The notes below the pieces were generated by a model that had not been told where the DNA came from, searched no databases, and worked only from the letters and a program-made list of their open reading frames with translations. DNA of 64,000 bases from a phage. Shown here one piece after another: positions 1,553 to 52,425 of the stretch (within the stretch, counting starts at the first letter, position 1; each line of letters begins with the position of its first letter). The stretch is from NCBI GenBank assembly GCA_024673055.1, contig GCA_024673055.1_4537.1; one strand, written 5' to 3'. The position numbers and the translations under genes were made by a program.

Positions 1553-3331
1553 GTGTCGCACATTATAACTAAATATGGATTTGATGTTGATCTTAGCAAG
1601 GAAGGGCATACAGGTTGTCCGCGCTGCATGAAAAATGGCAAGGATCGCTCTCGTAATAACCTGATGGTTTATGGATTAGATTCTAATGGAGAGCATAAAG
1701 GTGCTAAGTGCTTTGCGTGTGAATACACTATTCCTAGCGTAGAATGGTTACGAGAAAATGGTGAAGTTTTAGAAGAAGAGGAGGAGATTGTGGGTTCGGA
1801 ATTTAATAAACAGATTCATCGTAAAATTGTTCAAGAAACATCAACCAACCCACGTGGTTATCGAGGCATTAAAGAAAAAGTTTCATCTTTCTATGGTGTT
1901 CGTTATGAATACCGTCAGGAAGGGGATCAGATGGTAGTAGAAAGTTGTTTATATCCAACTACTATCGGTAAAGAATTGGTTGGTTTTAAGCGTCGTATTC
2001 ATCCTAAAGATTTCAGTAAACCTATTGGTCAAGTAGGTAAAGATGTAGATCTTTTTGGACAAATTCGTTTTGCAGACCGTTCTCATACTGTGGTAATTAC
2101 AGGTGGTGAACACGATGCTCTGGCAGCTTATCAAATGCTGTCTGAAAACTTGGACAACAAATATGAACTTCCAGCAGTAGTTAGTGGCACAACTGGTGAA
2201 ACCAGTATGTATAAACAAGTTCAGGCACAATATCCTTTTTTTGAAAAATTTAAGAAGATTATTGTTTGCATGGATAATGACAAAGCAGGTAATGAGGCAT
2301 TTGAAAATATTGTTAAGGTGCTGCCTCGTAACAAAGTCTACCGTATGCAGATGGATCTTAAGGATGCCAATCAGTATCTGGAAGAAGGTCGTGCAAAGGA
2401 TTTCGTAAAAGCTTTTTGGAGTGCTCGTCTATACACCCCAGCAGGTGTTTATGCTTCTAATGTCTTGTATGAAGCTGCATTAGAATGCTTGGAATCCAAG
2501 ATGATTACCTTGCCTCCTTTTATGCGTGTTGCTGCAAATATGCTGGGTGGTGGTTTAGTAGAGGAAGAGATTACAGTCATCCTGGCAAAGACCAGTATCG
2601 GTAAAACTTTGATGGTGAACGAGATCACCAAACATATTATTGTTGCGCACCCAGAACATACCCTAGGTATTCTGTCCTTGGAAGCAACTTATAAGAAATA
2701 TTCTCGTAACCTGTTGTCCTCGTTCCTGCATATTCCTCTACACAGGAAAACACCGGAAGAGAAATTTCAAATCTTGGAAGAGAATAAAGAAAAAATCCTA
2801 GATTTTTACGAAAGAGAAGATGGATCACCACGTTTTTATGTATGTGATGATCGTGGAGCAGATGTGGAGTCTATCAAAGAAAAAGTTTTGGAGATGATCA
2901 TCTATTTTGGAGTAACAATTCTTGTTATCGACCCTTATTCTGATTTGCTTTCTGGTATGGATGTTCAAGCCCAGGAAGAGTTAGCAACATGGTTGAAGCG
3001 CATCATGAAAGAGTATGCTATAACTATTATCGTCATCTCACACGTTAAGAAATCGGCTAATGGTGGCAATGAACACTTAACAGAGGACGATGCAATGGGT
3101 AGTAGTTTCTTGGCTAAAGGTGCTGGTATTACCTTGGCTTTGGAACGAGATAAAGCCGCTGAAGACCCTGTAGAACGCAATACGACTCATTGCTTTATCC
3201 TAAAAAACCGTGAGTTTTCGGAAACTGGTCCGGCAGGGCAGTTTTACTATGACATTAGAACTGCAACTCTGCATGACAAAGAGCAGTATTTCAACAATCC
3301 TGCTAATTTGCCTACGGATAGCAACTATTAA
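1553..3331 (+). CDS. DNA primase/helicase (T7 gp4-like)
   Basis: N-terminal Cys4 zinc ribbon (CPRC...CFAC), TOPRIM-like segment (VVITGGEHDALAAY), DnaB-type Walker A (ILAKTSIGKT) and Walker B (LVIDPYSDL). GTG start preceded by CAGGAGA. Confidence 0.85.
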   Translation: MSHIITKYGFDVDLSKEGHTGCPRCMKNGKDRSRNNLMVYGLDSNGEHKGAKCFACEYTIPSVEWLRENGEVLEEEEEIVGSEFNKQIHRKIVQETSTNPRGYRGIKEKVSSFYGVRYEYRQEGDQMVVESCLYPTTIGKELVGFKRRIHPKDFSKPIGQVGKDVDLFGQIRFADRSHTVVITGGEHDALAAYQMLSENLDNKYELPAVVSGTTGETSMYKQVQAQYPFFEKFKKIIVCMDNDKAGNEAFENIVKVLPRNKVYRMQMDLKDANQYLEEGRAKDFVKAFWSARLYTPAGVYASNVLYEAALECLESKMITLPPFMRVAANMLGGGLVEEEITVILAKTSIGKTLMVNEITKHIIVAHPEHTLGILSLEATYKKYSRNLLSSFLHIPLHRKTPEEKFQILEENKEKILDFYEREDGSPRFYVCDDRGADVESIKEKVLEMIIYFGVTILVIDPYSDLLSGMDVQAQEELATWLKRIMKEYAITIIVISHVKKSANGGNEHLTEDDAMGSSFLAKGAGITLALERDKAAEDPVERNTTHCFILKNREFSETGPAGQFYYDIRTATLHDKEQYFNNPANLPTDSNY

Positions 3332-3350
3332 GGGCTTCGGCCCTTTTATT
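3331..3350 (+). terminator. Rho-independent terminator after primase-helicase
   Basis: Hairpin GGGC-TTCG-GCCC followed by TTTTATT immediately after the stop codon. Confidence 0.55.
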
Positions 3351-3361
3351 AAAAATACCTG

Positions 3362-3390
3362 TTGACAACTTTACGGAAGGGACTTATACT
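3362..3390 (+). promoter_or_regulatory. Sigma70-like promoter
   Basis: TTGACA, 17-bp spacer, TATACT; followed by an RBS (AGAGGAG) and ATG at 3423. Confidence 0.55.
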
Positions 3391-3422
3391 TGTCTCATCA
3401 ACCAAACAAGAGGAGAAGTAAA

Positions 3423-3854
3423 ATGCGTATGACAATCGATCTGAATGCAAAAGTTAAAGCTGCTGGTGCTCTGGGTGCTGGTGTTATTAAACACAAACAA
3501 GCGTTGGCATTTGCCATCCCACATATGATTGTTGAGGATCATCCTGAAGAGTTTGCTGTAAAAGTTGTTGAGAATAATGTCTCTGTTATTGAACATCTTC
3601 CAACTGGACGTTCTTACCGTGTTGTTTCTTCTAAAGGTTTCCGTTTCGATGTAAGCCCTTCTTTCACAAAAGGTGCTGGTCGTAGTAAAGTGGGTATTCT
3701 TTCTTACAAATATTATATCGATAAAGTTGCAGATGGTGTTGCCTTCTGTCGTGTAAGTGAAGGTAAAGTAGATATCATCTTTAAAAATACCAAAAACATG
3801 GTTATTTCTGACGATGGTAAAGTTGACCTCACTATTGAGTTCGCTAACAACTAA
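3423..3854 (+). CDS. Hypothetical protein
   Basis: ORF track frame 3390..3854; the ATG at 3423 with an upstream AGAGGAG RBS is preferred because the track start overlaps the -10 box. Confidence 0.5.
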   Translation: MRMTIDLNAKVKAAGALGAGVIKHKQALAFAIPHMIVEDHPEEFAVKVVENNVSVIEHLPTGRSYRVVSSKGFRFDVSPSFTKGAGRSKVGILSYKYYIDKVADGVAFCRVSEGKVDIIFKNTKNMVISDDGKVDLTIEFANN

Positions 3855-22604: not shown

Positions 22605-22846
22605 TAGTCATCCTCTTTGGTAGATTGTGATCTGCCCCAGCGTAAATCAATAAGATTTTTCATGAGGCGAGAAGGAGTTATCATGAAAACAAAAGCCCAA
22701 CCCATCCATTCAGGAATTTCTTTTTCTATTCCTAAAAAGATAAACATGCCTGTCATAACCGACATGCCTACAGCGTTCCAGACTTTCGTAGAACTGACTT
22801 TATTATCAGGATATGTACAGAACATACCTATTAAAAATTTTCTCAT
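22604..22846 (-). CDS. Small membrane protein (two predicted TM helices)
   Basis: Hydrophobic segments (VMTGMFIFLGI; WMGWAFVFMITP); start overlaps the adjacent gene. Confidence 0.4.
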   Translation of the reverse strand: MRKFLIGMFCTYPDNKVSSTKVWNAVGMSVMTGMFIFLGIEKEIPEWMGWAFVFMITPSRLMKNLIDLRWGRSQSTKEDD

Positions 22847-23151
22847 AGTGCGTTCCCATTACTTTTTAAATCACGAGATACAGCTAATTCCCCAAGGTCT
22901 ACAGAACCCGCTGAATGCACAAGTACAGCAGCACTAAGACTAATGGCAGTAATACCTGAGGCAATATCAGCAGGTAGGGAATACGCCCTTTGCGTCTCCT
23001 TATCATAGATAACCTTATACCCACCCAAATCCACACCAACTGAGAAGTAAACAACCTCAGATTGTTTGACTCCAAAGTAACGGGCTACTGCTTGTTTATT
23101 GGTTAAGATTCCGGTTGAACCTTTACCACCTTGGGAGAACATTTCGTTCAC
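22843..23151 (-). CDS. Hypothetical structural protein
   Basis: 102 aa ORF in the late operon. Confidence 0.4.
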   Translation of the reverse strand: MNEMFSQGGKGSTGILTNKQAVARYFGVKQSEVVYFSVGVDLGGYKVIYDKETQRAYSLPADIASGITAISLSAAVLVHSAGSVDLGELAVSRDLKSNGNAL

Positions 23152-34600: not shown

Positions 34601-34628
34601 GAAACGAAAAAACCCCGCCGAAGCGAGG
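34601..34628 (-). terminator. Rho-independent terminator (minus strand) after tape-measure gene
   Basis: On the minus strand CCUCGC-UUCG-GCGGGG followed by UUUUUUCGUUUC. Confidence 0.6.
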
Positions 34629-34635
34629 TATTTTA

Positions 34636-36624
34636 TTAACCACCAGTGTTAGATTGTCCACTTAGAGTTGAAAGAGACAAACGTTGGAAAATGCTATTTC
34701 CGCTATTTTGAATTCTTGCATCAAGAATATTTCCAAACTCGGAAGAAGGACTGATCGTAACTTTGATAAGATCACTTGGTATTGCTACCGTATTCTCAAC
34801 AACAGGTTGATTACGAGCCAAACTTACGTTAGGTGTATAGGCTGATTCACGTAAATCTTCAAGAGGATTACCAAATCCAAAAGCACGTGTCCTTGTTTGT
34901 TCTCCTCTCCACATACGACCAATATCTTGTGTATCAATGCCTGTTAAATTGTACAACCAATCTGCTACAGGATTGCTGTCTCCACTTTGCGTTGCCTCGT
35001 ATGCTTTTTGTGCCATAGATTTATTAGGATCTGTGTTGTCTCCGAATGTATCTGGGAATGTTTCTTTAAGCCAATTGGTAAAAGATCCGAAACCATCTCC
35101 CAATTCTTTAGCAAAACCTCCTAATTGAACTGTTGTCTTACCGAGTTCTTCACCTAAATCTTTGGCAAACTGATCTAACACTTTAACGTTATCCAACCAA
35201 GAATCATCTTTAGGTAACGCTTTCACAAAACCCTCTAAGAAGTGGTTCTGCATACCTTGACCTACAAGCTGAACTGTTGCAGCAAAACGAGTAAACTCCT
35301 TAGAAGCATCTATTTGTTCTTGAGTTAATGTTGCACCTGTTCTTTGAAGCATTTTCAATACTTCATTGTATCCTTCGCCGTTTTTACTAAACATACGTTG
35401 GTAGTGCATAAGGTCATCACCAAGGTTTTCAAGAAGTCGCCCGATTTGAGCAGAGTTCATACCTCGACGCTCACCTTCATTAACAGTAGCCTGAATAAAA
35501 GCTAAAGGATCGTTCTGTAAAGGTTTAAGCTGTTCTGGATTCCATCCAAACAAGTTCATAATGTCAGTTATGCCATTATCACCGCCTTTCCACTTCCCTT
35601 CTTTCTCATTCCACTTTGCAGCTAAAACGGTATTACCAAGACGTTCACGAACGTCTTTAATATTATCTATTGATTTAATAATATTTGCAGAGTCTACACC
35701 GTTCTGTTCACCCCAAGCTGTCATTGCCAAAATAGCGTTGGCGTTTGTCTGAACGTTTTCAGCGCCACGACTTACAAGCTTAATTCTTTCGTTAGTATTC
35801 ATCAACGTGTTACCAACTACAGAACCACCTGCAAACAACCCAGCACCTATTAAAGAGGATGCAATCATGCGTGGATTAAGACCTGCTGCACCTTCTTTTA
35901 ATTGTCCGTATCTACGATCACGATCACGTTTTTGTTGCGCTAATTCACGCTTACGGTTGCGTTCTATATCTCTAAGTTCACGATTTCGCATACGTATACG
36001 CATTTTAGCTTCTGCTTCTAGCTCTCTACGAATACGGCGACGACCGCGAACCTCGTCTTCTATTTCAGCATTCTTTTCACGATGAGATCTGCGTAAGGCA
36101 TCTAACTGGTGAGCAAGAGCTTGGTTCATACGTTGAAGAGTTATTTCACCCTTTTTGTATTGCTCTACAGCTTTACCCATAACGTCTCTAGCTTCTTGCA
36201 TAGCGCCAGGACTAGCTTTACTAAATGCTCTTGCTCGATAGTTAAAGTTCTGCAAACGAAGATTACCTAAATCTTCCCTACGTGCTGCTGCTTTAGCTTC
36301 GCGTTCAGCAGCTTTACGAGCTTTTTCTTCTTCTCTTCCTTGCGGGGTTTTAGGAGTTCTAGGTCTACCAGATCCACCTACAGGAGCACCCGCTCCAGCG
36401 GGAGTAGGTGCTCGCATAGGTTTTTGACTTTGAGTTTGAGCTTTCTTAAGTTCACGCTCAATCTCTTTCATTTGTTGTCTAAACTTGGTCATGTTCATAG
36501 TGGGTTGCATTTTATTTGCAAACTTCTGAACACTCAACACGGCATCTTTTGCTTCCTTGAGACTGTTCTTGTCCACCTTAAACGTAACCACGTTACTAAT
36601 TTTGGAGGCGTTAATTTCTAACAA
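34636..36624 (-). CDS. Tail tape measure protein
   Basis: 662 aa, extended Arg/Lys/Glu-rich coiled-coil regions, Gly-rich hydrophobic segment (LIGAGLFAGGSVVGN); follows the chaperone genes. Confidence 0.6.
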   Translation of the reverse strand: MLEINASKISNVVTFKVDKNSLKEAKDAVLSVQKFANKMQPTMNMTKFRQQMKEIERELKKAQTQSQKPMRAPTPAGAGAPVGGSGRPRTPKTPQGREEEKARKAAEREAKAAARREDLGNLRLQNFNYRARAFSKASPGAMQEARDVMGKAVEQYKKGEITLQRMNQALAHQLDALRRSHREKNAEIEDEVRGRRRIRRELEAEAKMRIRMRNRELRDIERNRKRELAQQKRDRDRRYGQLKEGAAGLNPRMIASSLIGAGLFAGGSVVGNTLMNTNERIKLVSRGAENVQTNANAILAMTAWGEQNGVDSANIIKSIDNIKDVRERLGNTVLAAKWNEKEGKWKGGDNGITDIMNLFGWNPEQLKPLQNDPLAFIQATVNEGERRGMNSAQIGRLLENLGDDLMHYQRMFSKNGEGYNEVLKMLQRTGATLTQEQIDASKEFTRFAATVQLVGQGMQNHFLEGFVKALPKDDSWLDNVKVLDQFAKDLGEELGKTTVQLGGFAKELGDGFGSFTNWLKETFPDTFGDNTDPNKSMAQKAYEATQSGDSNPVADWLYNLTGIDTQDIGRMWRGEQTRTRAFGFGNPLEDLRESAYTPNVSLARNQPVVENTVAIPSDLIKVTISPSSEFGNILDARIQNSGNSIFQRLSLSTLSGQSNTGG

Positions 36625-36644
36625 AGTATGTTCCTCGTGTTGGA

Positions 36645-36863
36645 TTAAACAAGTTTCTTAAACAAATCTGACATTTTATTTGTCTGGTTTTGATGTTTTC
36701 TCTTTATTGAAGTGTCTTTAACATACATGGCTTCAACATACTCTTCGTATGTTAAATACTCATATAGTTTTAAAAGATAATCTACACCGTAGTTATCCAA
36801 TGTTTTCAGTGTTTCCGAGGTATCTTTAACGACTTTGCAAAGAATAACCTCATACCACTTCAA
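36645..36863 (-). CDS. Tail assembly chaperone, frameshift-extension ORF
   Basis: The -1 frame after a slippery site in 36911..37393 reads through without a stop into this ORF. Confidence 0.5.
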   Translation of the reverse strand: MKWYEVILCKVVKDTSETLKTLDNYGVDYLLKLYEYLTYEEYVEAMYVKDTSIKRKHQNQTNKMSDLFKKLV

Positions 36864-36910
36864 AGTAAGGGTTTTCGTTGCTGTGTCGATAGCATGTTCA
36901 ATCGCAGGTG

Positions 36911-37393
36911 TTAATTTGCTGCTAAACTCGTCATCGCCTGAAGCTGTGTGAACAGTTTTCCGAAACCTCGTTTGAAAAAAGGGCCGTAGTTTACCTCCAG
37001 AACTTTAGCAGTAAGATCTAACACTAGTTCTGGGTGAGCCATAAATAATTCATCAAAATTTTCTGCAACGTTATAACCGTCTTGAGTATAAACCTCATCT
37101 AAAATTTTACGCAAAAAGACAGTTAAATTCTTTTCTTCCAAACCTGCAAAAAGTTGGATCAGTGCCATAGCAATACGCGACTCAAGGTCTTCGTCTGCGG
37201 ACATTGTTGCTGTGCTATACATAGTCATAGGAACAACCAGAACACTACCTAATTCTGGAATCCTGTCAAACACTTTAGATGGACTCCACTTCATAATACG
37301 GAAAGTAACAGATCTGTTTCCATCTAACGGAATCTCAACTACTTCTTCTGGTCGAGCATATTTTTGAATTGTGTTATCTTGTTCTTGTGACAT
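36911..37393 (-). CDS. Tail assembly chaperone
   Basis: 160 aa acidic protein between the tube gene and the tape-measure gene, with a frameshift signature. Confidence 0.5.
   Translation of the reverse strand: MSQEQDNTIQKYARPEEVVEIPLDGNRSVTFRIMKWSPSKVFDRIPELGSVLVVPMTMYSTATMSADEDLESRIAMALIQLFAGLEEKNLTVFLRKILDEVYTQDGYNVAENFDELFMAHPELVLDLTAKVLEVNYGPFFKRGFGKLFTQLQAMTSLAAN
36974..36980 (-). other. Candidate programmed -1 ribosomal frameshift site (slippery heptamer U UUU UUC)
   Basis: In-frame codons CCU UUU UUC about 25 codons before the chaperone stop; the -1 frame is open into the downstream 72 aa ORF. Confidence 0.45.
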
Positions 37394-37411
37394 ATTTTCC
37401 TCTCTAATGAT

Positions 37412-37435
37412 AAAAAGGGCATTTCTGCCCTTTAT
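37412..37435 (-). terminator. Rho-independent terminator (minus strand) after tail tube gene
   Basis: AGGGCA-TTTC-TGCCCT hairpin with a T-rich tract on the minus strand. Confidence 0.5.
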
Positions 37436-37438
37436 TTA

Positions 37439-37918
37439 TTATTGAATTGTCAGAGCAGAGATTGAGTTAAGGGTGCTCAAACCTACACCAACTTCATTAC
37501 GCAGAAGGCTTGCATCTTTAAGACCAATAACCCATTGGTTCTCTGTAATCATTTCGCCAATAGTATCTTCAGGCTGACTTTGAATCCATCCAATCGTGCT
37601 AATGTAATAGCCACGTGGGTCTTCTAAATAAACACTGAACGCTACTTGACGAGTAGAATACATTGTTTGTGCATATGTTGCAAGTACTTCGTTAGCTGGA
37701 GATGTGCGTTGCAAAGACATTGTGAGTGTTCCCAAACGGTTACGACTCAAAGCTAGTGAAACGTCGCCATCAGTCCCTGCATAAGGGTTGATAATATCGT
37801 TAGATTTAGCAATAACGATTTTAGTATCAGCCGCAAAACCCCACGGTTCCCAACCACCTAATGAAAGGATAACTTGAGATGGGTCGTAGGCCATTACGCC
37901 AGTAAGCATTTTATCCAT
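37439..37918 (-). CDS. Putative tail tube protein
   Basis: 159 aa ORF directly after the sheath-size gene and followed by a terminator. Inferred from synteny. Confidence 0.4.
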   Translation of the reverse strand: MDKMLTGVMAYDPSQVILSLGGWEPWGFAADTKIVIAKSNDIINPYAGTDGDVSLALSRNRLGTLTMSLQRTSPANEVLATYAQTMYSTRQVAFSVYLEDPRGYYISTIGWIQSQPEDTIGEMITENQWVIGLKDASLLRNEVGVGLSTLNSISALTIQ

Positions 37919-37964: not shown

Positions 37965-39338
37965 TTAGTTTGCAGTACGGTTAGTCAGGACGTTGACCTG
38001 AACTTTAACGTAATGGAAGAAGCCAGCGTAAACATATTCAATCTTCATCCCATCTACCAGACGAGCATTGATTTGCGCATCAGTCATATCGGCACGAGAA
38101 GGAATATAAACAATAGGTTTCAGATCGACACGCAAACCAGTCTCTTCAGAAGTAACAACTTCATTAGCGATGGAACCGTTGAGGATACCTACTTGGATCG
38201 GGTTAGCCAGAACAGCTTGTCGAATCAAAGCCAGACCGTTTGAAGTAGCACGAACACCACCACCCAGCATAGACTGTTGTTTAAACAGTGTAAACAGTGA
38301 TTCTTCTGTGCGAGCTTTAAACCACAAAGCATGAACAACATAGTCAACAAAGAAACCGCTAACCATCAATCCATCACGATAGAACAGAGTTCCATGCTCT
38401 TTACGATAGATGTTACCGTTCTGTTGAACAATATTGTTTTCCGAAGTCTGATCCAGTTTCTCGATCTCTACACCTACCAGTGTTTTACCGTGAAGAGTAG
38501 TTAAACCAGGTTGACGAGAACAGATTGCACCAACAACTGCTGCTTCTGGGAATACAGAATCTGCATCGGTCATCCACAAAGCAAAGCAAGTGTTATTATA
38601 ACCGAGGTCATTCAGTCGTTCCAGAACGTTATCTTCTGCTTTCGTTTTAATTCCAGGTTCAGAGCTAGAGAAGAAGTAAACTTTATCATTCTCTTCTACC
38701 CATGCAGCCAAAGCTAGAACATCTTCTGTTTCATGGGAATCTGAAAGGGTCCAGAACCAGCTACTATCAATATCATGCAGAGCAGCGATATCTTCCGTAA
38801 TAGCATTAGCATAGACAGTTTCTTGAGTGAAACCTGTGCTGTCAATAGAACCAAACTTACCTTCTACTGGAGTGAAAGTCATTGCAGCGCCGTTGTTAGC
38901 TACTGTAAACAGTGGGCCATAAACAAGATCTGCATTGATCATTTCAGTCAGACCAACTACAATCTCTTGTGCAGTTGCAGTGTCATCAGCAATGAATTTA
39001 AATTCTTTTTTCTTGGTACCATTTTTGATGGTAATTGTGTAAGTTGCACTATCTTCTACGATTGGAGTTAGAGTAAAGTTTGTAACTTCACGCTTACCAA
39101 CCATAACTTGATCTGGTGGGAACAAACCGTTAAACAGTTTGACTGCCATAATATACGCTGGATCATTTAATCCATAACCTGCTTCCAAAAGTGCATCGGA
39201 AGAAGAGTAATATTGAATCGCTTCGCCAGTTACGTTCTGACCTGTAAGGATCAGGGGAATATCGAACTGGGTTTCACGAATTGATGTAGCACCATACAGT
39301 AAAGTTACGGTTGCTACCTTTTCACGAAAAGTTGCCAT
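37965..39338 (-). CDS. Putative tail sheath protein
   Basis: 457 aa ORF upstream of tube/chaperone/tape-measure genes. Inferred from synteny. Confidence 0.4.
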   Translation of the reverse strand: MATFREKVATVTLLYGATSIRETQFDIPLILTGQNVTGEAIQYYSSSDALLEAGYGLNDPAYIMAVKLFNGLFPPDQVMVGKREVTNFTLTPIVEDSATYTITIKNGTKKKEFKFIADDTATAQEIVVGLTEMINADLVYGPLFTVANNGAAMTFTPVEGKFGSIDSTGFTQETVYANAITEDIAALHDIDSSWFWTLSDSHETEDVLALAAWVEENDKVYFFSSSEPGIKTKAEDNVLERLNDLGYNNTCFALWMTDADSVFPEAAVVGAICSRQPGLTTLHGKTLVGVEIEKLDQTSENNIVQQNGNIYRKEHGTLFYRDGLMVSGFFVDYVVHALWFKARTEESLFTLFKQQSMLGGGVRATSNGLALIRQAVLANPIQVGILNGSIANEVVTSEETGLRVDLKPIVYIPSRADMTDAQINARLVDGMKIEYVYAGFFHYVKVQVNVLTNRTAN

Positions 39339-50315: not shown

Positions 50316-50394
50316 TGGAGGCGGGAATCGGATTCGAACCGATGATCTCCAGCATATGAAACTGGCGAGGACGACCAGACTCCTCTATCCCGCT
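50316..50394 (-). tRNA. tRNA-Met (anticodon CAT), CCA encoded
   Basis: Hand-folded cloverleaf: T-arm ATCGG-TTCGAAT-CCGAT, anticodon stem CCAGT/GCTGG with loop TTCATAT, D-stem GAGG/CCTC; the 1-72 pair is A-C (unpaired). Confidence 0.6.
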
Positions 50395-50400
50395 ATTATG

Positions 50401-50470
50401 TATCCCGTGCTGGATTCGAACCAGCATCACAATAAGTTGTGGAACTCTTATCCTGTAAGTCTAACGGGAA
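50401..50470 (-). tRNA. tRNA-like element with aberrant anticodon arm (possible pseudo-tRNA)
   Basis: Good T-arm (GCTGG-TTCGAAT-CCAGC) and near-complementary acceptor, but the anticodon region folds only as CACAA-CTTA-TTGTG (4-nt loop). Confidence 0.3.
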
Positions 50471-50472
50471 AC

Positions 50473-50546
50473 TGGTTGTTTCGACAAGAATCGAACTTGT
50501 GTCTCACGATTATCAGTCGTGGGTTCTACCATTGAACTACGAAACA
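50473..50546 (-). tRNA. tRNA-Ile (anticodon GAT), CCA encoded
   Basis: Acceptor TGTTTCG/CGAAACA, D-arm GTTC-AATGGTA-GAAC, anticodon stem CACGA/TCGTG with loop CTGATAA, T-arm ACAAG-TTCGATT-CTTGT. Confidence 0.7.
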
Positions 50547-50552
50547 TTTGAT

Positions 50553-50629
50553 TGGTCGGAATTGCAGGATTCGAACCTGCGACCCTACGCTCCCAAAGCG
50601 TATGCTCTACCAAACTGAGCTAAATTCCG
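50553..50629 (-). tRNA. tRNA-Pro (anticodon TGG), CCA encoded
   Basis: Acceptor CGGAATT/AATTCCG, D-arm GCTC...GAGC, anticodon stem TACGC/GCGTA with loop TTTGGGA, T-arm GCAGG-TTCGAAT-CCTGC. Confidence 0.7.
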
Positions 50630-50634
50630 TTATA

Positions 50635-50710
50635 TGGCTGGTCTGTCTGGATTTGAACCAAACCTACGACAGTCAAAGTGTCGTGTGCTACCGGACTACA
50701 CTACAAACCA
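50635..50710 (-). tRNA. tRNA-Gln (anticodon TTG), CCA encoded
   Basis: Acceptor TGGTTTG/CAGACCA (one GU pair), anticodon stem CGACA/TGTCG with loop CTTTGAC, T-arm TTTGG-TTCAAAT-CCAGA. Confidence 0.65.
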
Positions 50711-50808
50711 ATAAATCATTTAATGAAGGGCAACCAGAAGAGGTGTGAGAGAAGGAGAAAACCATGAGTAAAAGAGAAAGTTTTCTGGCAACCCTTTATT
50801 AAATAATT

Positions 50809-50882
50809 TGGAGCGTTCTACGAGGATCGAACTCGTGCCGCCGACTTGGAAGGACGGAATGCTACCGCTACACCAAGAACGC
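50809..50882 (-). tRNA. tRNA-Gly (anticodon TCC), CCA encoded
   Basis: Acceptor GCGTTCT/AGAACGC, anticodon loop CTTCCAA (stem has one U-U mismatch), T-arm ACGAG-TTCGATC-CTCGT. Confidence 0.6.
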
Positions 50883-50893
50883 CCTACATCTTT

Positions 50894-50923
50894 ACTATAC
50901 TACATTTTACTATTGGTTGTCAA
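50894..50923 (-). promoter_or_regulatory. Sigma70-like promoter (minus strand) for downstream tRNAs
   Basis: On the minus strand AACTATTGACAA, 18 bp, TATAGT, just upstream of tRNA-Gly. Confidence 0.5.
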
Positions 50924-51383
50924 TAGTTTTATTGAGTGGGACAGTGACGAGTATCCCGTTGGGTGACTAGCCCTACGTTCGGTAAGCTAACTTAAAATAA
51001 TACAAAACCAAAGTCAAATATTATTCTTCGTTGCTGTCGATGGGAGAGCCGCTTCTTCTTTTGCCCCATCCAACCCTACTCCGGTCAAGTTTCAGGTAAC
51101 TCTTTTTGTGATCAACACAATACTAAGAACACTGTCTTTCGAGCAGACCTTGTGCACAGGATACGACGATCAATCACAGTGCTCTTAATGTTGTGTTGTG
51201 AATACTAACCTCGGAACTCATTACCGCGTTTTGGCTCGACCTTACTACAGGTTAGTGAATGTCTTTCGTCCGCTTACATTCAATAAGTTTGCTTTCTTCA
51301 CAACGATAAGAACACTTAACAGAAGATAGGTCTGATTGCCTCGGATGATTTCTCAGTAGCCTAAATGTTCTTACCTGTTATGT

Positions 51384-51458
51384 TGGTGCTCCCACTCTGA
51401 ATCGAACAGAGATCCACGGATTACAAAACCGTTGTAATAGCCATTATACTATAGGAGC
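51384..51458 (-). tRNA. tRNA-Thr (anticodon TGT), CCA encoded
   Basis: Acceptor GCTCCTA/TGGGAGC, anticodon loop TTTGTAA (stem with one U-U mismatch), T-arm CTCTG-TTCGATT-CAGAG. Confidence 0.55.
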
Positions 51459-51464
51459 AAAGCT

Positions 51465-51541
51465 GGGACTCGGCAGGATTCGATACCTGCAATTTCAGAA
51501 GCCTCTTGGCGACTGGGGGTTTACCTTAACTCTACAAGTCC
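51465..51541 (-). tRNA. tRNA-like element, non-canonical (8-nt T-loop, no foldable anticodon arm)
   Basis: Acceptor GGACTTG/CGAGTCC and T-arm-like GCAGG-TATCGAAT-CCTGC, but no 5/7/5 anticodon arm could be found by hand. Confidence 0.3.
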
Positions 51542-51548
51542 ATAATTC

Positions 51549-51634
51549 TGGCGATGAGTATAGGATTTGAACCTATATCGTTCTTTCGAACACGGATTAA
51601 CAGTCCGCCGCTTAAACCATTCAGCCAACTCATC
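51549..51634 (-). tRNA. tRNA with anticodon GTT (Asn codons) on a long-variable-arm, Tyr-like body; CCA encoded
   Basis: Perfect acceptor GATGAGT/ACTCATC, anticodon arm GCGGA-CTGTTAA-TCCGT, 15-nt variable arm (GTTC-GAAA-GAAC), T-arm ATAGG-TTCAAAT-CCTAT; lies adjacent to tRNA-Tyr. Confidence 0.5.
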
Positions 51635-51640
51635 TTAATT

Positions 51641-51728
51641 TGGTGGTGAGTGATGGAGTCGAACCACCCGAATCGCAATGATAACAGATTTACAGTCTGC
51701 CCCGCTACCCCTACGGAATTAACTCACC
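51641..51728 (-). tRNA. tRNA-Tyr (anticodon GTA), type II, CCA encoded
   Basis: Acceptor GGTGAGT/ACTCACC, anticodon arm GCAGA-CTGTAAA-TCTGT, long variable arm, T-arm GGTGG-TTCGACT-CCATC. Confidence 0.65.
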
Positions 51729-51858
51729 TAAATACTAATATTTAAATTCTTTTTAAAATAGCCAGTGTTCACACCACTAACTATGAGTTATCGGTAAGAT
51801 GGTGGGGGCCATCTGCCGAAAGTTTACTCTATTAAAGTAAGCTATATTAAAAAGAACT

Positions 51859-51944
51859 TGGCGGTAGATGTAGGACTCGAACCTACATGCCGTTTCCGAC
51901 TACAGTTTAGCAAACTGTCGTGGCTACCATTTCACCAATCTACC
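51859..51944 (-). tRNA. tRNA-Ser (anticodon GCT), type II, CCA encoded
   Basis: Acceptor GGTAGAT/ATCTACC, anticodon arm ACAGT-TTGCTAA-ACTGT, long variable arm, T-arm GTAGG-TTCGAGT-CCTAC. Confidence 0.65.
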
Positions 51945-51948
51945 AATC

Positions 51949-52039
51949 TGGCGGAAGGAGGGAGAGTCGAACTCCCAAGGCTCTTTCAAGCTCGGCGGTT
52001 TTCAAGACCGTTTTCGTCGCCACGTCGATTTGCCCTTCC
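51949..52039 (-). tRNA. tRNA-Ser (anticodon TGA), type II, CCA encoded
   Basis: Acceptor GGAAGGG/TCCTTCC, anticodon loop CTTGAAA, long variable arm, T-arm GGGAG-TTCGACT-CTCCC. Confidence 0.55.
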
Positions 52040-52047
52040 ATACTTAT

Positions 52048-52077
52048 AATCTAACATAAAATAATGTTAGTTGTCAA
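52048..52077 (-). promoter_or_regulatory. Sigma70-like promoter (minus strand) inside the tRNA cluster
   Basis: On the minus strand AACTATTGACAA, 18 bp, TAGATT, upstream of tRNA-Ser(TGA). Confidence 0.45.
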
Positions 52078-52273
52078 TAGTTTTTTAAAACATTTTACCA
52101 TGAATGGTGACTCCACCAACCCCCGTTCTCAACGAACGGTGCTCTTCGAGCATTTATGTCTTCTAATATAACCGTGGCCTTTGTTTATAATGTCTGACAT
52201 ACTTGCCTCATTCTCTGCCACCATGATCAGTAGTGGGTTCAAATCACTTGAGCTAATTCATGTTAAAATGTTC

Positions 52274-52348
52274 TGGTGTCTTTACAAGGAATCGAACCTT
52301 GACTAAGAGTTTAGAAGACTCCTGTGCTATCCATTACACCATAAAGAC
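52274..52348 (-). tRNA. tRNA-Arg (anticodon TCT), CCA encoded
   Basis: Acceptor GTCTTTA/TAAAGAC, anticodon arm GGAGT-CTTCTAA-ACTCT, T-arm CAAGG-TTCGATT-CCTTG. Confidence 0.7.
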
Positions 52349-52350
52349 GT

Positions 52351-52425
52351 TGGTGGCCCTGGCTGGTTTCGATCCAGCTACCTATCGGTTATGAGCCGAC
52401 AGCTCTCCCATTGAGCTACAGGGCC
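52351..52425 (-). tRNA. tRNA with anticodon CAT (Met, or Ile if lysidine-modified), CCA encoded
   Basis: Acceptor GGCCCTG/CAGGGCC, D-arm GCTC-AATGGGA-GAGC, anticodon arm GTCGG-CTCATAA-CCGAT, T-arm GCTGG-ATCGAAA-CCAGC. Confidence 0.65.

What the first reader, a model, noticed from the sequence alone, without database searches (positions are those of the whole stretch)
36645..37393. Programmed -1 frameshift joining the two tail assembly chaperone ORFs
About 25 codons before the stop of the 160 aa chaperone gene the mRNA has the slippery heptamer U UUU UUC. The -1 frame from that point is open with no stop and runs into the downstream 72 aa ORF, giving the classic G/GT-type fusion directly upstream of the tape-measure gene.
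Basis: partly seen in the sequence, partly recalled or inferred. Interest (0 to 1): 0.45.

Follow-up and report, generated by a model that had tools for sequence, protein, structure and literature searches.

The report
Tail chaperone -1 frameshift, confirmed
This phAPEC8-like E. coli phage makes a longer version of its tail assembly chaperone when some ribosomes slip back one base at U UUU UUC, an ordinary and widely conserved phage trick that the public records of this phage group do not annotate.

Summary
On the minus strand, the 160-aa tail assembly chaperone gene (36911-37393; Pfam PF21822, E=4e-23) carries T TTT TTC at 36980-36974. It is in the exact X XXY YYZ register, at codons F139-F140, which is 20 codons before the stop rather than about 25. 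From there the -1 frame is open for 109 codons, absorbs the annotated 72-aa ORF and stops 20 nt before the tape-measure gene. The predicted GT fusion is 249 aa.

The window is a Phapecoctavirus, 99.8% identical to phAPEC8. In all 52 related loci examined (G identity down to about 25-30%) and in Aeromonas phage 4L372XY, the heptamer is invariant and in register and the -1 ORF is kept. No start codon is conserved for the downstream ORF. The "intergenic" 47 nt evolve as -1-frame coding sequence. Rheinheimera Barba phages have lost the T-run but carry G GGA AAG, lambda's heptamer, three codons downstream in the same frame relation. This argues for ribosomal slippage.

No conserved downstream RNA structure was found. 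A GGAGG 13 nt upstream may act as a stimulator. None of the 21 records inspected annotates the fusion, and the exact fusion protein is absent from a 15-billion-sequence collection.

Verdict: a real, previously unannotated member of the well-known G/GT frameshift class. Interest is low.

The parts
36911..37393 (-). Gene G (TAC-N): 160-aa tail assembly chaperone, ATG start, TAA stop at 36911-36913
   Evidence: ORF list. Pfam PF21822 Phage_TAC_15, E=4.2e-23. phrog_3840 'tail assembly chaperone', E=3e-50. All 43 database homologues carry PF21822. AF2 model has pLDDT 78 and its best BFVD matches are proteins labelled as tail or tape-measure chaperones.
36974..36980 (-). Slippery heptamer U UUU UUC (P site UUU = F139, A site UUC = F140)
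   Evidence: Register checked. Invariant in 52 of 52 related loci and in Aeromonas phage 4L372XY. U_UU.U_UU.C is listed among shift-prone heptamers in E. coli (PMC4066793).
36977..36983 (-). Second, overlapping in-register heptamer C CCU UUU. Slippage here gives the same protein.
   Evidence: Present in the Stephanstirmvirinae-type loci and absent from the Vequintavirinae-type loci, which read GGC UGU UUU UUC. C_CC.U_UU.U is also on the shift-prone list of PMC4066793.
36645..36974 (-). -1-frame extension ('T' part): 109 codons plus TAA. The GT product is join(37393..36974, 36974..36645), 249 aa.
   Evidence: The C-terminal 72 aa match phrog_16039. It is conserved as protein in the -1 frame across all relatives.
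36864..36910 (-). Stretch annotated as intergenic in phAPEC8 records. It codes in the -1 frame (T codons 22-37, ...LTPAIEHAIDTATKTLT).
   Evidence: Substitutions against 10 relatives fall on -1-frame codon positions 1/2/3 as 52/40/103. The annotated ORF shows the same pattern, 258/151/405.
36645..36863 (-). The '72-aa ORF' as annotated (TTG start). Interpreted as the C-terminal part of GT, not an independent gene.
   Evidence: There is no SD sequence in the 20 nt before the TTG, and start candidates are not conserved among relatives. It is named 'hypothetical protein' in NCBI and was called on only 15 contigs, against 419 for G.
36994..36998 (-). SD-like GGAGG, 13 nt upstream of the heptamer. 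Possible dnaX/IS911-type stimulator (tentative).
   Evidence: GGAG or GAGG sits at this spot in 23 of 32 distinct contexts. The Glu codon here is GAG 21: GAA 4, although the window's structural genes use GAA:GAG at 142:42. SD stimulators act 6-17 nt upstream (PMC4066793). Absent in several lineages.
37399..37402 (-). Shine-Dalgarno GAGG of gene G, 5 nt before the ATG
   Evidence: Read from the sequence.
37414..37433 (-). Terminator-like hairpin between the tube gene and G
   Evidence: Annotated as a terminator in phAPEC8.
34636..36624 (-). Tape-measure protein gene (662 aa, TTG start, GAGGA RBS). Starts 20 nt after the GT stop.
   Evidence: phrog_16051, E=0. RefSeq annotation of phAPEC8.
37439..37918 (-). 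Tail tube gene (159 aa)
   Evidence: PF11681 and phrog_280. Annotated as a tail tube in several records.
37965..39338 (-). Tail sheath gene (457 aa)
   Evidence: PF11863 DUF3383. phrog_205 'tail sheath', E=3e-100.

Best explanation
This is a programmed -1 ribosomal frameshift in the tail assembly chaperone gene of a phAPEC8-like myovirus.

Most ribosomes read gene G to its stop and make the 160-aa chaperone. A minority slip while tRNA-Phe occupies UUU in the P site and UUC in the A site. Both tRNAs re-pair one base back (UUU/UUU), and translation continues in the -1 frame for 109 more codons. The result is a 249-aa GT protein: the whole folded G domain (residues 1-140), then a variable linker, then a conserved C-terminal 'T' domain.

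By analogy with lambda gpG/gpGT, G and the G part of GT would coat the tape-measure protein encoded immediately downstream. The rare T domain would recruit the tube protein to start polymerisation. Neither product would stay in the virion.

What is shown here: the gene identities, the heptamer and its register, the open -1 frame, the lack of an independent start, and the conservation of all of these. What is inferred: that slippage happens in vivo, how often, and the roles of G and GT.
For: (1) Anatomy.

(2) G is a TAC: PF21822 at 82.7 bits and phrog_3840. All 43 homologues carry PF21822 and are 100-175 aa long, so there are no natural in-frame fusions among them.

(3) The AF2 model (pLDDT 78) has its last confident helix ending at residue 141. 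The zero-frame tail 141-160 is low-confidence, so the shift site sits exactly at the end of the folded domain.

(4) The heptamer is invariant and in register in 52 of 52 loci. The -1 ORF is 101-127 codons long in every one. In the 13 GenBank-type loci it ends 8-57 nt before the tape-measure start, except DU_PP_IV, where it ends 957 nt before.

(5) There is selection at the nucleotide level. The codon before the heptamer encodes C, P or S but always ends in T. F-F is always TTT TTC. The neighbouring invariant Asn and Tyr show synonymous variation.

(6) The T domain is conserved as protein, and its start candidates are not conserved.

(7) The 'intergenic' linker evolves with third-position bias in the -1 frame. 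In the overlap, substitutions concentrate on zero-frame third positions instead, so G's own tail is also under selection.

(8) Rheinheimera Barba phages replaced the F-F/T-run by ...LTSGKSF and carry G GGA AAG in register three codons downstream, with a 93-codon -1 ORF that keeps the T motif. Aeromonas phage 4L372XY keeps T TTT TTC.

(9) U_UU.U_UU.C is shift-prone in E. coli. U_UU.C ranks second among A-site tetramers (PMC4066793).

(10) A homologous conserved -1 PRF with a GTTTTT motif has been argued for the TAC loci of the related Vandenendeviridae and Andersonviridae (PMC12846349).
Against: There is no experimental evidence for the fusion protein in this phage group. No paper in the library mentions it for phAPEC8, phi92 or rV5.

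No conserved downstream stem-loop was found. The window's 100 nt downstream fold no better than shuffles (z = 0.13), and RNAalifold finds 0 pairs. Heptamers alone gave at most about 0.5% shifting in reporter constructs (PMC4066793), so the efficiency may be low or may depend on an unproven stimulator.

The loci compared are phylogenetically related, so '52 of 52' is not 52 independent events.
Confidence: 0.9

Rival explanations
1. Transcriptional slippage. RNA polymerase stutters on the T6 run and adds one U to a fraction of mRNAs. Normal translation of those mRNAs then gives the same GT protein. The amino-acid sequence would be identical: P-F-F-Q-T.
For: The site is a homopolymer run, and the product would be indistinguishable at the protein level. 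The review PMC5009743 documents transcriptional slippage as an alternative route to -1-frame products.
Against: The run is only 6 T and never longer in 52 loci. The seventh base is always C, whereas a longer run would favour slippage. The strict X XXY YYZ register is kept. Barba phages use G GGA AAG, which has no long homopolymer, at the equivalent place. From memory, efficient slippage by bacterial RNA polymerase needs runs of about 8-9 or more.
Confidence: 0.04
2. Two independent genes. The 72-aa ORF is translated on its own from its TTG, or by reinitiation after the G stop, and the heptamer is a by-product of a conserved Phe-Phe.
For: GenBank and RefSeq records annotate it that way or leave it out. 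The exact 72-aa sequence is deposited as a 'hypothetical protein'.
Against: There is no SD sequence before the TTG, which lies 47 nt after the G stop. The start candidates differ in every lineage and lie downstream of conserved residues in Ro1 and Hena1. The region upstream of the TTG evolves as coding in the -1 frame. The three synonymous positions of the heptamer are invariant, which Phe-Phe conservation alone does not explain. Gene callers found the ORF on only 15 contigs, against 419 for G.
Confidence: 0.03
3. Artefact or decay. A sequencing indel in the homopolymer, or a real frameshift mutation, split a single 250-aa gene.
For: Homopolymer runs are prone to indel errors.
Against: The same T6 run and the same frame relation occur in more than 50 independently sequenced genomes and metagenomic contigs. 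G's zero-frame tail after the site is itself conserved: K141, G143 and F144 are invariant or nearly so. In the overlap, substitutions favour zero-frame third positions. Both products therefore appear to be selected.
Confidence: 0.01

Closest known systems
Phage lambda gpG/gpGT (G GGA AAG) and the conserved tail-chaperone frameshift of long-tailed dsDNA phages (Xu, Hendrix & Duda 2004; Levin et al. 1993; summarised in PMC5009743)
   Same: Two overlapping ORFs lie between the major tail/tube gene and the tape-measure gene. The downstream ORF is in the -1 frame and has no start of its own. [quoted passage not shown] No strong RNA stimulator is evident.
   Different: The heptamer here is U UUU UUC instead of G GGA AAG, although the Barbavirus relatives of this family do use G GGA AAG. 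The host phage is a 150-kb contractile-tailed virus with a DUF3383-type sheath. G belongs to a different Pfam TAC family (PF21822). No detectable similarity to any solved structure: no sequence match to PDB chains and no significant Foldseek match.
TAC locus of Vandenendeviridae (Pakpunavirus, phage Adele) and Andersonviridae (Moogle-like), with a proposed conserved -1 PRF and a GTTTTT motif (PMC12846349, 2025)
   Same: The virion modules are related, with KPP10-type tube and DUF3383 sheath matches. There is a poly-T slippery motif at the 3' end of TAC-N. The downstream 'hypothetical protein' is really the C-terminal part of TAC-NC. The argument is also comparative. The Moogle 'tape measure chaperone' appears among the fold matches of the G model.
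   Different: That paper analysed Vandenendeviridae and Andersonviridae, not Stephanstirmvirinae or Vequintavirinae. Here the full heptamer T TTT TTC and its register are defined. In the phAPEC8 group the base before the run is C rather than G, which creates a second overlapping heptamer, C CCU UUU.
Phage P2 gpE/gpE+E' and Mu tail chaperone frameshifts (myoviruses). Recalled from memory, not checked here.
   Same: These are contractile-tailed phages with a -1 frameshift in the chaperone gene just upstream of the tape-measure gene. P2 is recalled to use a T-rich heptamer (TTTTTTG).
   Different: No sequence relationship was tested. The genome type and tail-module lineage differ.
E. coli dnaX and IS911/IS3 -1 frameshift signals
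   Same: Tandem slippage on an X XXY YYZ heptamer in an E. coli host. There may be an upstream SD-like stimulator (GGAGG 13 nt upstream, within the 6-17 nt range used in PMC4066793).
   Different: No downstream hairpin or pseudoknot was detected. The SD-like element is not conserved in all lineages (23 of 32 contexts), and its effect is untested.

Membership tests
G/GT-type tail assembly chaperone with programmed -1 frameshift | Gene pair located between the major tail (tube) gene and the tape-measure gene | tested here: met
   The order on the minus strand is sheath, tube, G, T, tape measure.
G/GT-type tail assembly chaperone with programmed -1 frameshift | Downstream ORF in the -1 frame that overlaps the 3' end of G and is open from the shift site onward | tested here: met
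   The -1 frame is open from gene offset 389 to the stop at 36645. There are 109 codons after the shift. The +1 frame is closed.
G/GT-type tail assembly chaperone with programmed -1 frameshift | Canonical slippery heptamer X XXY YYZ, in register, inside the overlap | tested here: met
   U UUU UUC at 36980-36974, plus the overlapping C CCU UUU.
G/GT-type tail assembly chaperone with programmed -1 frameshift | Shift site and frame relation conserved in divergent relatives | tested here: met
   Kept in 52 of 52 loci. The heptamer is swapped for G GGA AAG in Barbavirus, with the frame relation retained.
G/GT-type tail assembly chaperone with programmed -1 frameshift | Downstream ORF lacks its own functional start or RBS | tested here: met
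   There is no SD sequence before the TTG. Start candidates are not conserved and lie downstream of conserved residues in some relatives. The linker evolves as -1-frame coding sequence.
G/GT-type tail assembly chaperone with programmed -1 frameshift | Upstream protein is a tail assembly chaperone by sequence family | tested here: met
   PF21822 at 82.7 bits (cut-off 22) and phrog_3840 at E=3e-50.
G/GT-type tail assembly chaperone with programmed -1 frameshift | Fold like solved tail assembly chaperones | tested here: inconclusive
   No PDB match by sequence or by Foldseek (best E = 0.94). In BFVD the model matches predicted structures labelled as tail or tape-measure chaperones: Barba at 2.9e-7, POR1 at 2.5e-4, Moogle at 1.5e-2.
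G/GT-type tail assembly chaperone with programmed -1 frameshift | Fusion protein made in vivo at a low, fixed ratio to G, with both products required for tail assembly | not testable with these tools
   Needs proteomics, reporter assays or phage genetics.
Transcriptional (RNA polymerase) slippage site | Long homopolymeric A or T run, with length rather than codon register being what matters | tested here: not met
   The run is T6 only, never longer, and always followed by C. The register is strictly kept. A relative uses GGGAAAG instead. The length threshold is recalled from memory.
SD-stimulated -1 frameshift (dnaX/IS911 type) | SD-like sequence 6-17 nt upstream of the heptamer, conserved | tested here: inconclusive
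   GGAGG lies 13 nt upstream in the window. GGAG or GAGG is present in 23 of 32 distinct contexts and absent from the Certrevirus-like, Ro1 and ChuuTotoro contexts there; none within 30 nt upstream in Barba or 4L372XY. It is confounded with a conserved Leu-Glu.
RNA-structure-stimulated -1 frameshift | Stable, conserved hairpin or pseudoknot 5-9 nt downstream of the heptamer | tested here: not met
   MFE z-score is 0.13. RNAalifold finds 0 conserved pairs in 13 sequences. No Rfam hit reaches threshold. Pseudoknots were not searched explicitly.

The most novel reading that the evidence does not exclude
The most novel reading not excluded has two parts.

First, the U UUU UUC site could be one ancient frameshift site inherited across a very wide clade of large myoviruses. 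The clade would include Stephanstirmvirinae, Vequintavirinae and Plateaulakevirus and, through the GTTTTT motif, Vandenendeviridae and Andersonviridae. Barbavirus would be a lineage where the heptamer was replaced by G GGA AAG.

Second, in the phAPEC8/rV5 groups, efficiency could be set by an upstream anti-SD interaction (GGAGG 13 nt upstream) and a doubled heptamer (C CCU UUU UUC), not by any downstream RNA structure.
Probability: 0.3. Interest if true: 0.3.

Novelty: new member of a known kind. Interest (0 to 1): 0.2.

Why it matters
The main value is for annotation. In the 21 GenBank/RefSeq records of phAPEC8-, phi92- and rV5-like phages and their more distant relatives inspected here, the downstream ORF is a 'hypothetical protein' or is missing, with no joined CDS. 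Several of these phages are candidates for therapy or biocontrol. The 249-aa product is absent from a 15-billion-sequence protein collection.

Correct annotation adds a real and probably essential tail-assembly protein and removes a spurious gene. The case also gives a clean natural example of heptamer replacement (TTTTTTC to GGGAAAG) with the frame relation preserved. It does not change the understanding of frameshifting or of tail assembly.

Tried and rejected
- Downstream stimulatory RNA. The single-sequence fold (z = 0.13), RNAalifold on 13 homologous sites (0 pairs) and Rfam at E<=1 (only sub-threshold sRNA noise) found nothing.
- Solved-structure relatives of GT. phmmer against PDB gave 0 hits and Foldseek against PDB gave none significant.
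- NCBIfam: no meaningful hit.
Only G was modelled, so the T domain was not.
- Literature searches for phAPEC8, Phapecoctavirus, phi92, rV5 or Vequintavirinae with 'frameshift' found no description of this site. Vladimirov et al. 2022 could not be read.
- A window-wide scan for -1 ORFs crossing gene stops was uninformative, because ordinary overlapping downstream genes dominate it.
- Another 'heptamer plus long -1 ORF' candidate at 22617-22937(+) was rejected. That ORF is antisense to the real minus-strand genes.
- Scripting errors, all corrected. One regex error was fixed. One script timeout was fixed. One malformed paper search was repeated.

Full report
**What the window is**

BLASTN of 36400-37600 gives 99.8-99.9% identity over the full length to 65 phage genomes of the genus Phapecoctavirus (phAPEC8, ESCO5, ESCO13 and others; subfamily Stephanstirmvirinae). 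It gives 60-80% identity to Justusliebigvirus (phi92-like) genomes.

The finding lies in the tail module, which is read on the minus strand:

| Feature | Coordinates | Evidence |
|---|---|---|
| Sheath | 37965-39338 | DUF3383, phrog_205 |
| Tube | 37439-37918 | PF11681, phrog_280 |
| Terminator-like hairpin | 37433-37414 | |
| 160-aa ORF (G) | 36911-37393 | PF21822, phrog_3840 |
| 72-aa ORF | 36645-36863 | phrog_16039 |
| Tape-measure gene | 34636-36624 | phrog_16051, E=0 |
| Second terminator-like hairpin | 34629-34612 | |

**Checking the observation**

Read on the minus strand, the end of the 160-aa ORF is ...GTA AAC TAC GGC CCT TTT TTC AAA CGA GGT TTC.... TTTTTTC starts at gene offset 413, and 413 mod 3 = 2. 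The zero-frame parsing is therefore CC[T TTT TTC], a correctly phased X XXY YYZ heptamer at window 36980-36974, codons F139-F140. It ends 20 codons before the stop.

The -1 frame opens 8 codons upstream of the heptamer. After a -1 slip it reads Q-T-R-F-R-K... for 109 codons, through the G stop and the 47-nt gap, into the 72-aa ORF. It ends at the TAA at 36645-36647, 20 nt before the TTG start of the tape-measure gene. The fusion is 249 aa. The +1 frame closes after a few codons.

Three bases upstream there is a second in-register heptamer, C CCT TTT. Slipping there gives the same amino-acid sequence.

**Is it more than chance?**

In 56 ORFs of the window, in-register heptamers occur at 0.41% of codons. 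About 0.12 are therefore expected in the 30-codon overlap. A single genome is only suggestive. The comparative data decide the matter.

**Identity of the upstream protein**

- The fusion's N-terminal part matches Pfam PF21822 (Phage_TAC_15) at 82.7 bits against a cut-off of 22. It matches PHROG 3840 "tail assembly chaperone" at E=3e-50.
- All 43 homologues found in the 5.8-billion-cluster database carry PF21822. They are 100-175 aa long, so none is a natural in-frame G-T fusion.
- An AlphaFold2 model built on 26 sequences has pLDDT 78 and pTM 0.72. Its last confident helix spans 121-141, and the zero-frame tail 141-160 is low-confidence. The shift site thus sits at the very end of the folded domain, as expected if GT is "all of G plus an extra domain".
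- The model has no significant match in the PDB.
- In BFVD it matches predicted structures labelled as tail or tape-measure chaperones: Rheinheimera Barba at 2.9e-7, Pseudomonas POR1 at 2.5e-4, and Citrobacter Moogle at 1.5e-2.

**Comparative evidence**

I fetched 12 GenBank loci spanning Stephanstirmvirinae (phiWec188, phi92-like PATM, Klebsiella 05F01) and Vequintavirinae (rV5, Hena1, Ro1, Av-05, SSE121, DU_PP_IV, A73, ChuuTotoro, pEa_SNUABM_55). Their G proteins are only 23-35% identical to the window's in the second group. I added 39 IMG/VR loci.

- In all 52 loci (30 distinct local contexts), TTTTTTC is present in the same register and at the homologous place (...N-Y-G-x-F-F). The -1 frame is open from a few codons upstream of it for 101-127 codons.
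- In the 13 GenBank-type loci the -1 ORF ends 8-57 nt before the tape-measure start, except DU_PP_IV, where extra ORFs are inserted in between.
- The conservation is at the nucleotide level. The codon before the Phe pair encodes Cys (TGT, 17), Pro (CCT, 12) or Ser (AGT, 1), and it always ends in T. Phe-Phe is always TTT TTC. The adjacent invariant Asn and Tyr do vary synonymously (AAT 1 of 30, TAT 7 of 30).
- One caveat applies. One of the two peptide patterns used to find the IMG/VR loci required F-F at the amino-acid level, though it placed no constraint on codon choice. The loci are also phylogenetically related.

**The downstream ORF is not an independent gene**

- In the window, the first possible start codon in the -1 frame is the TTG at 36863, and no purine-rich SD precedes it (cagcaacgaaaacccttact-TTG).
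- Among relatives the first candidate start lies anywhere from 28 to 83 codons after the shift site. In Ro1 and Hena1 it is at +83 and +79, downstream of the conserved SSLxW(F/Y)DYLxxR motif. Those conserved residues can only be translated by ribosomes arriving from upstream.
- Across 10 Stephanstirmvirinae-type relatives, differences from the window in the "intergenic" linker (T codons 22-37) fall on -1-frame codon positions 1/2/3 as 52/40/103. The annotated ORF shows the same third-position bias, 258/151/405.
- In the 21-codon overlap the counts are 109/66/54. The excess is on the position that is the third base of the zero frame. G's own C-terminal tail is therefore under selection as well: K141, G143 and F144 are invariant or nearly so. 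The overlapping part of GT acts as a variable linker.
- Both products therefore look selected. This also rules out a sequencing indel or a pseudogene.

**Ribosomal or transcriptional slippage?**

The protein would be the same either way. Three observations favour the ribosome.

1. The T-run is never longer than six, and the seventh base is always C.
2. The X XXY YYZ register is always kept.
3. In the more distant Rheinheimera Barba phages the Phe-Phe/T-run is gone (...QHYGCLTSGKSF). A different canonical heptamer, G GGA AAG, which is lambda's, lies in register three codons downstream. It is followed by a 93-codon -1 ORF carrying the T motif TSSLDFIDYMFF.

Aeromonas phage 4L372XY (Plateaulakevirus) keeps T TTT TTC, with a 127-codon -1 ORF.

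Sharma et al. measured all heptamers in E. coli (PMC4066793):
- U_UU.C is the second most shift-prone A-site tetramer.
- Homogeneous all-pyrimidine motifs are favoured.
- U_UU.U_UU.C and C_CC.U_UU.U are both on their list of motifs that shift above 0.1% without stimulators and are under-represented in E. coli genes.

**Stimulators**

The 100 nt downstream fold no better than shuffled sequence (z = 0.13). RNAalifold finds no conserved pair among 13 homologous sites. Rfam finds nothing above threshold.

Upstream, GGAGG lies at 36998-36994, 13 nt before the heptamer. That is inside the 6-17 nt range in which SD-like stimulators were searched by Sharma et al.. GGAG or GAGG is at this spot in 23 of 32 distinct contexts. 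The Glu codon involved is GAG 21: GAA 4, although the window's structural genes prefer GAA 142:42.

The element overlaps a conserved Leu-Glu. It is missing in the Certrevirus-like, Ro1 and ChuuTotoro contexts, and none lies within 30 nt upstream of the heptamer in Barba or 4L372XY. I regard it as a plausible but unproven dnaX/IS911-type stimulator.

**Comparison with what is known**

The arrangement is the classic G/GT tail-chaperone frameshift described for lambda and generalised to long-tailed dsDNA phages (Xu, Hendrix & Duda 2004; Levin et al. 1993; reviewed in PMC5009743).

The nearest published case is a 2025 analysis arguing for a conserved -1 PRF with a GTTTTT motif in the TAC loci of Vandenendeviridae and Andersonviridae. 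These are clades related to Vequintavirinae (PMC12846349).

For phAPEC8-, phi92- and rV5-like phages I found no description. None of the 21 GenBank/RefSeq records inspected carries a joined CDS. The exact 249-aa fusion is not in a collection of about 15 billion proteins. G is there on 419 contigs, and the 72-aa ORF on 15, as a "hypothetical protein".

**Verdict**

Both the observation and the interpretation are supported. This is a real, conserved programmed -1 frameshift site of a well-known kind, so far missing from the annotation of this phage group. Mechanistic novelty is low. The heptamer swap in Barbavirus and the possible SD-like stimulator are modest points of interest. Experimental proof is still lacking: the junction peptide, a reporter assay, and mRNA sequencing.

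Noticed in passing
L057 (Rheinheimera phage Barba17S, MK719728.1) 1396-2090: The homologous chaperone has lost the TTTTTTC/Phe-Phe. It carries G GGA AAG, the lambda G/GT heptamer, in register three codons downstream. The -1 ORF behind it is 93 codons long and keeps the T-domain motif. This is a natural swap of the slippery site.
   Followed up: partly
window 37414-37433 (-) and 34612-34629 (-): Terminator-like hairpins bracket the G-GT-tape-measure unit. One lies between the tube stop and the G start, and one right after the tape-measure stop. The first may lower chaperone and tape-measure expression relative to tube and sheath.
   Followed up: no
window 50316-52425 (-): A cluster of 10 tRNA genes: Met x2, Ile, Pro, Gln, Gly, Thr, Asn, Ser, Arg. 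None is tRNA-Phe, so the slipping tRNA would be the host's.
   Followed up: no
L012 (DU_PP_IV) 2599-3477; L058 (Aeromonas 4L372XY) 2667-3824; L057 (Barba17S) 2105-2743: In three distant relatives, extra ORFs are inserted between the end of the -1 (T) ORF and the tape-measure gene. One is on the opposite strand and is annotated as a putative DNA-binding protein. The junction looks like a hot spot for inserted, possibly mobile, genes.
   Followed up: no
search results: Several GenBank records named after unrelated hosts are 99.8% identical here to E. coli phapecoctaviruses or are rV5- or phi92-like. Examples are 'Campylobacter phage' C3, C9, A135 and others, 'Acinetobacter phage vB_AbaM_ABPW7', 'Enterococcus phage IME_EF3' and 'Klebsiella phage ZCKP1'. 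The host labels in these records may be unreliable.
   Followed up: no
L009 (Raoultella phage Ro1, MG250486.1) 935-1407: The tail tube gene is annotated as two short CDS (935-1129 and 1168-1407), where relatives have one gene of about 474 nt. This is probably a sequencing or annotation frameshift in that record.
   Followed up: no
window 36952-36957 (-) and the homologous sites in all loci: GGTTT(C) is nearly invariant 9-12 nt downstream of the heptamer. It codes Gly-Phe in the zero frame and Arg-Phe in the -1 frame. Dual-coding constraint probably explains it, but a role in frameshifting was not excluded.
   Followed up: partly
window 34636-36624 (-): The tape-measure gene starts with TTG, preceded by GAGGA. 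The 72-aa ORF's nominal start is also TTG, but it has no SD sequence.
   Followed up: partly
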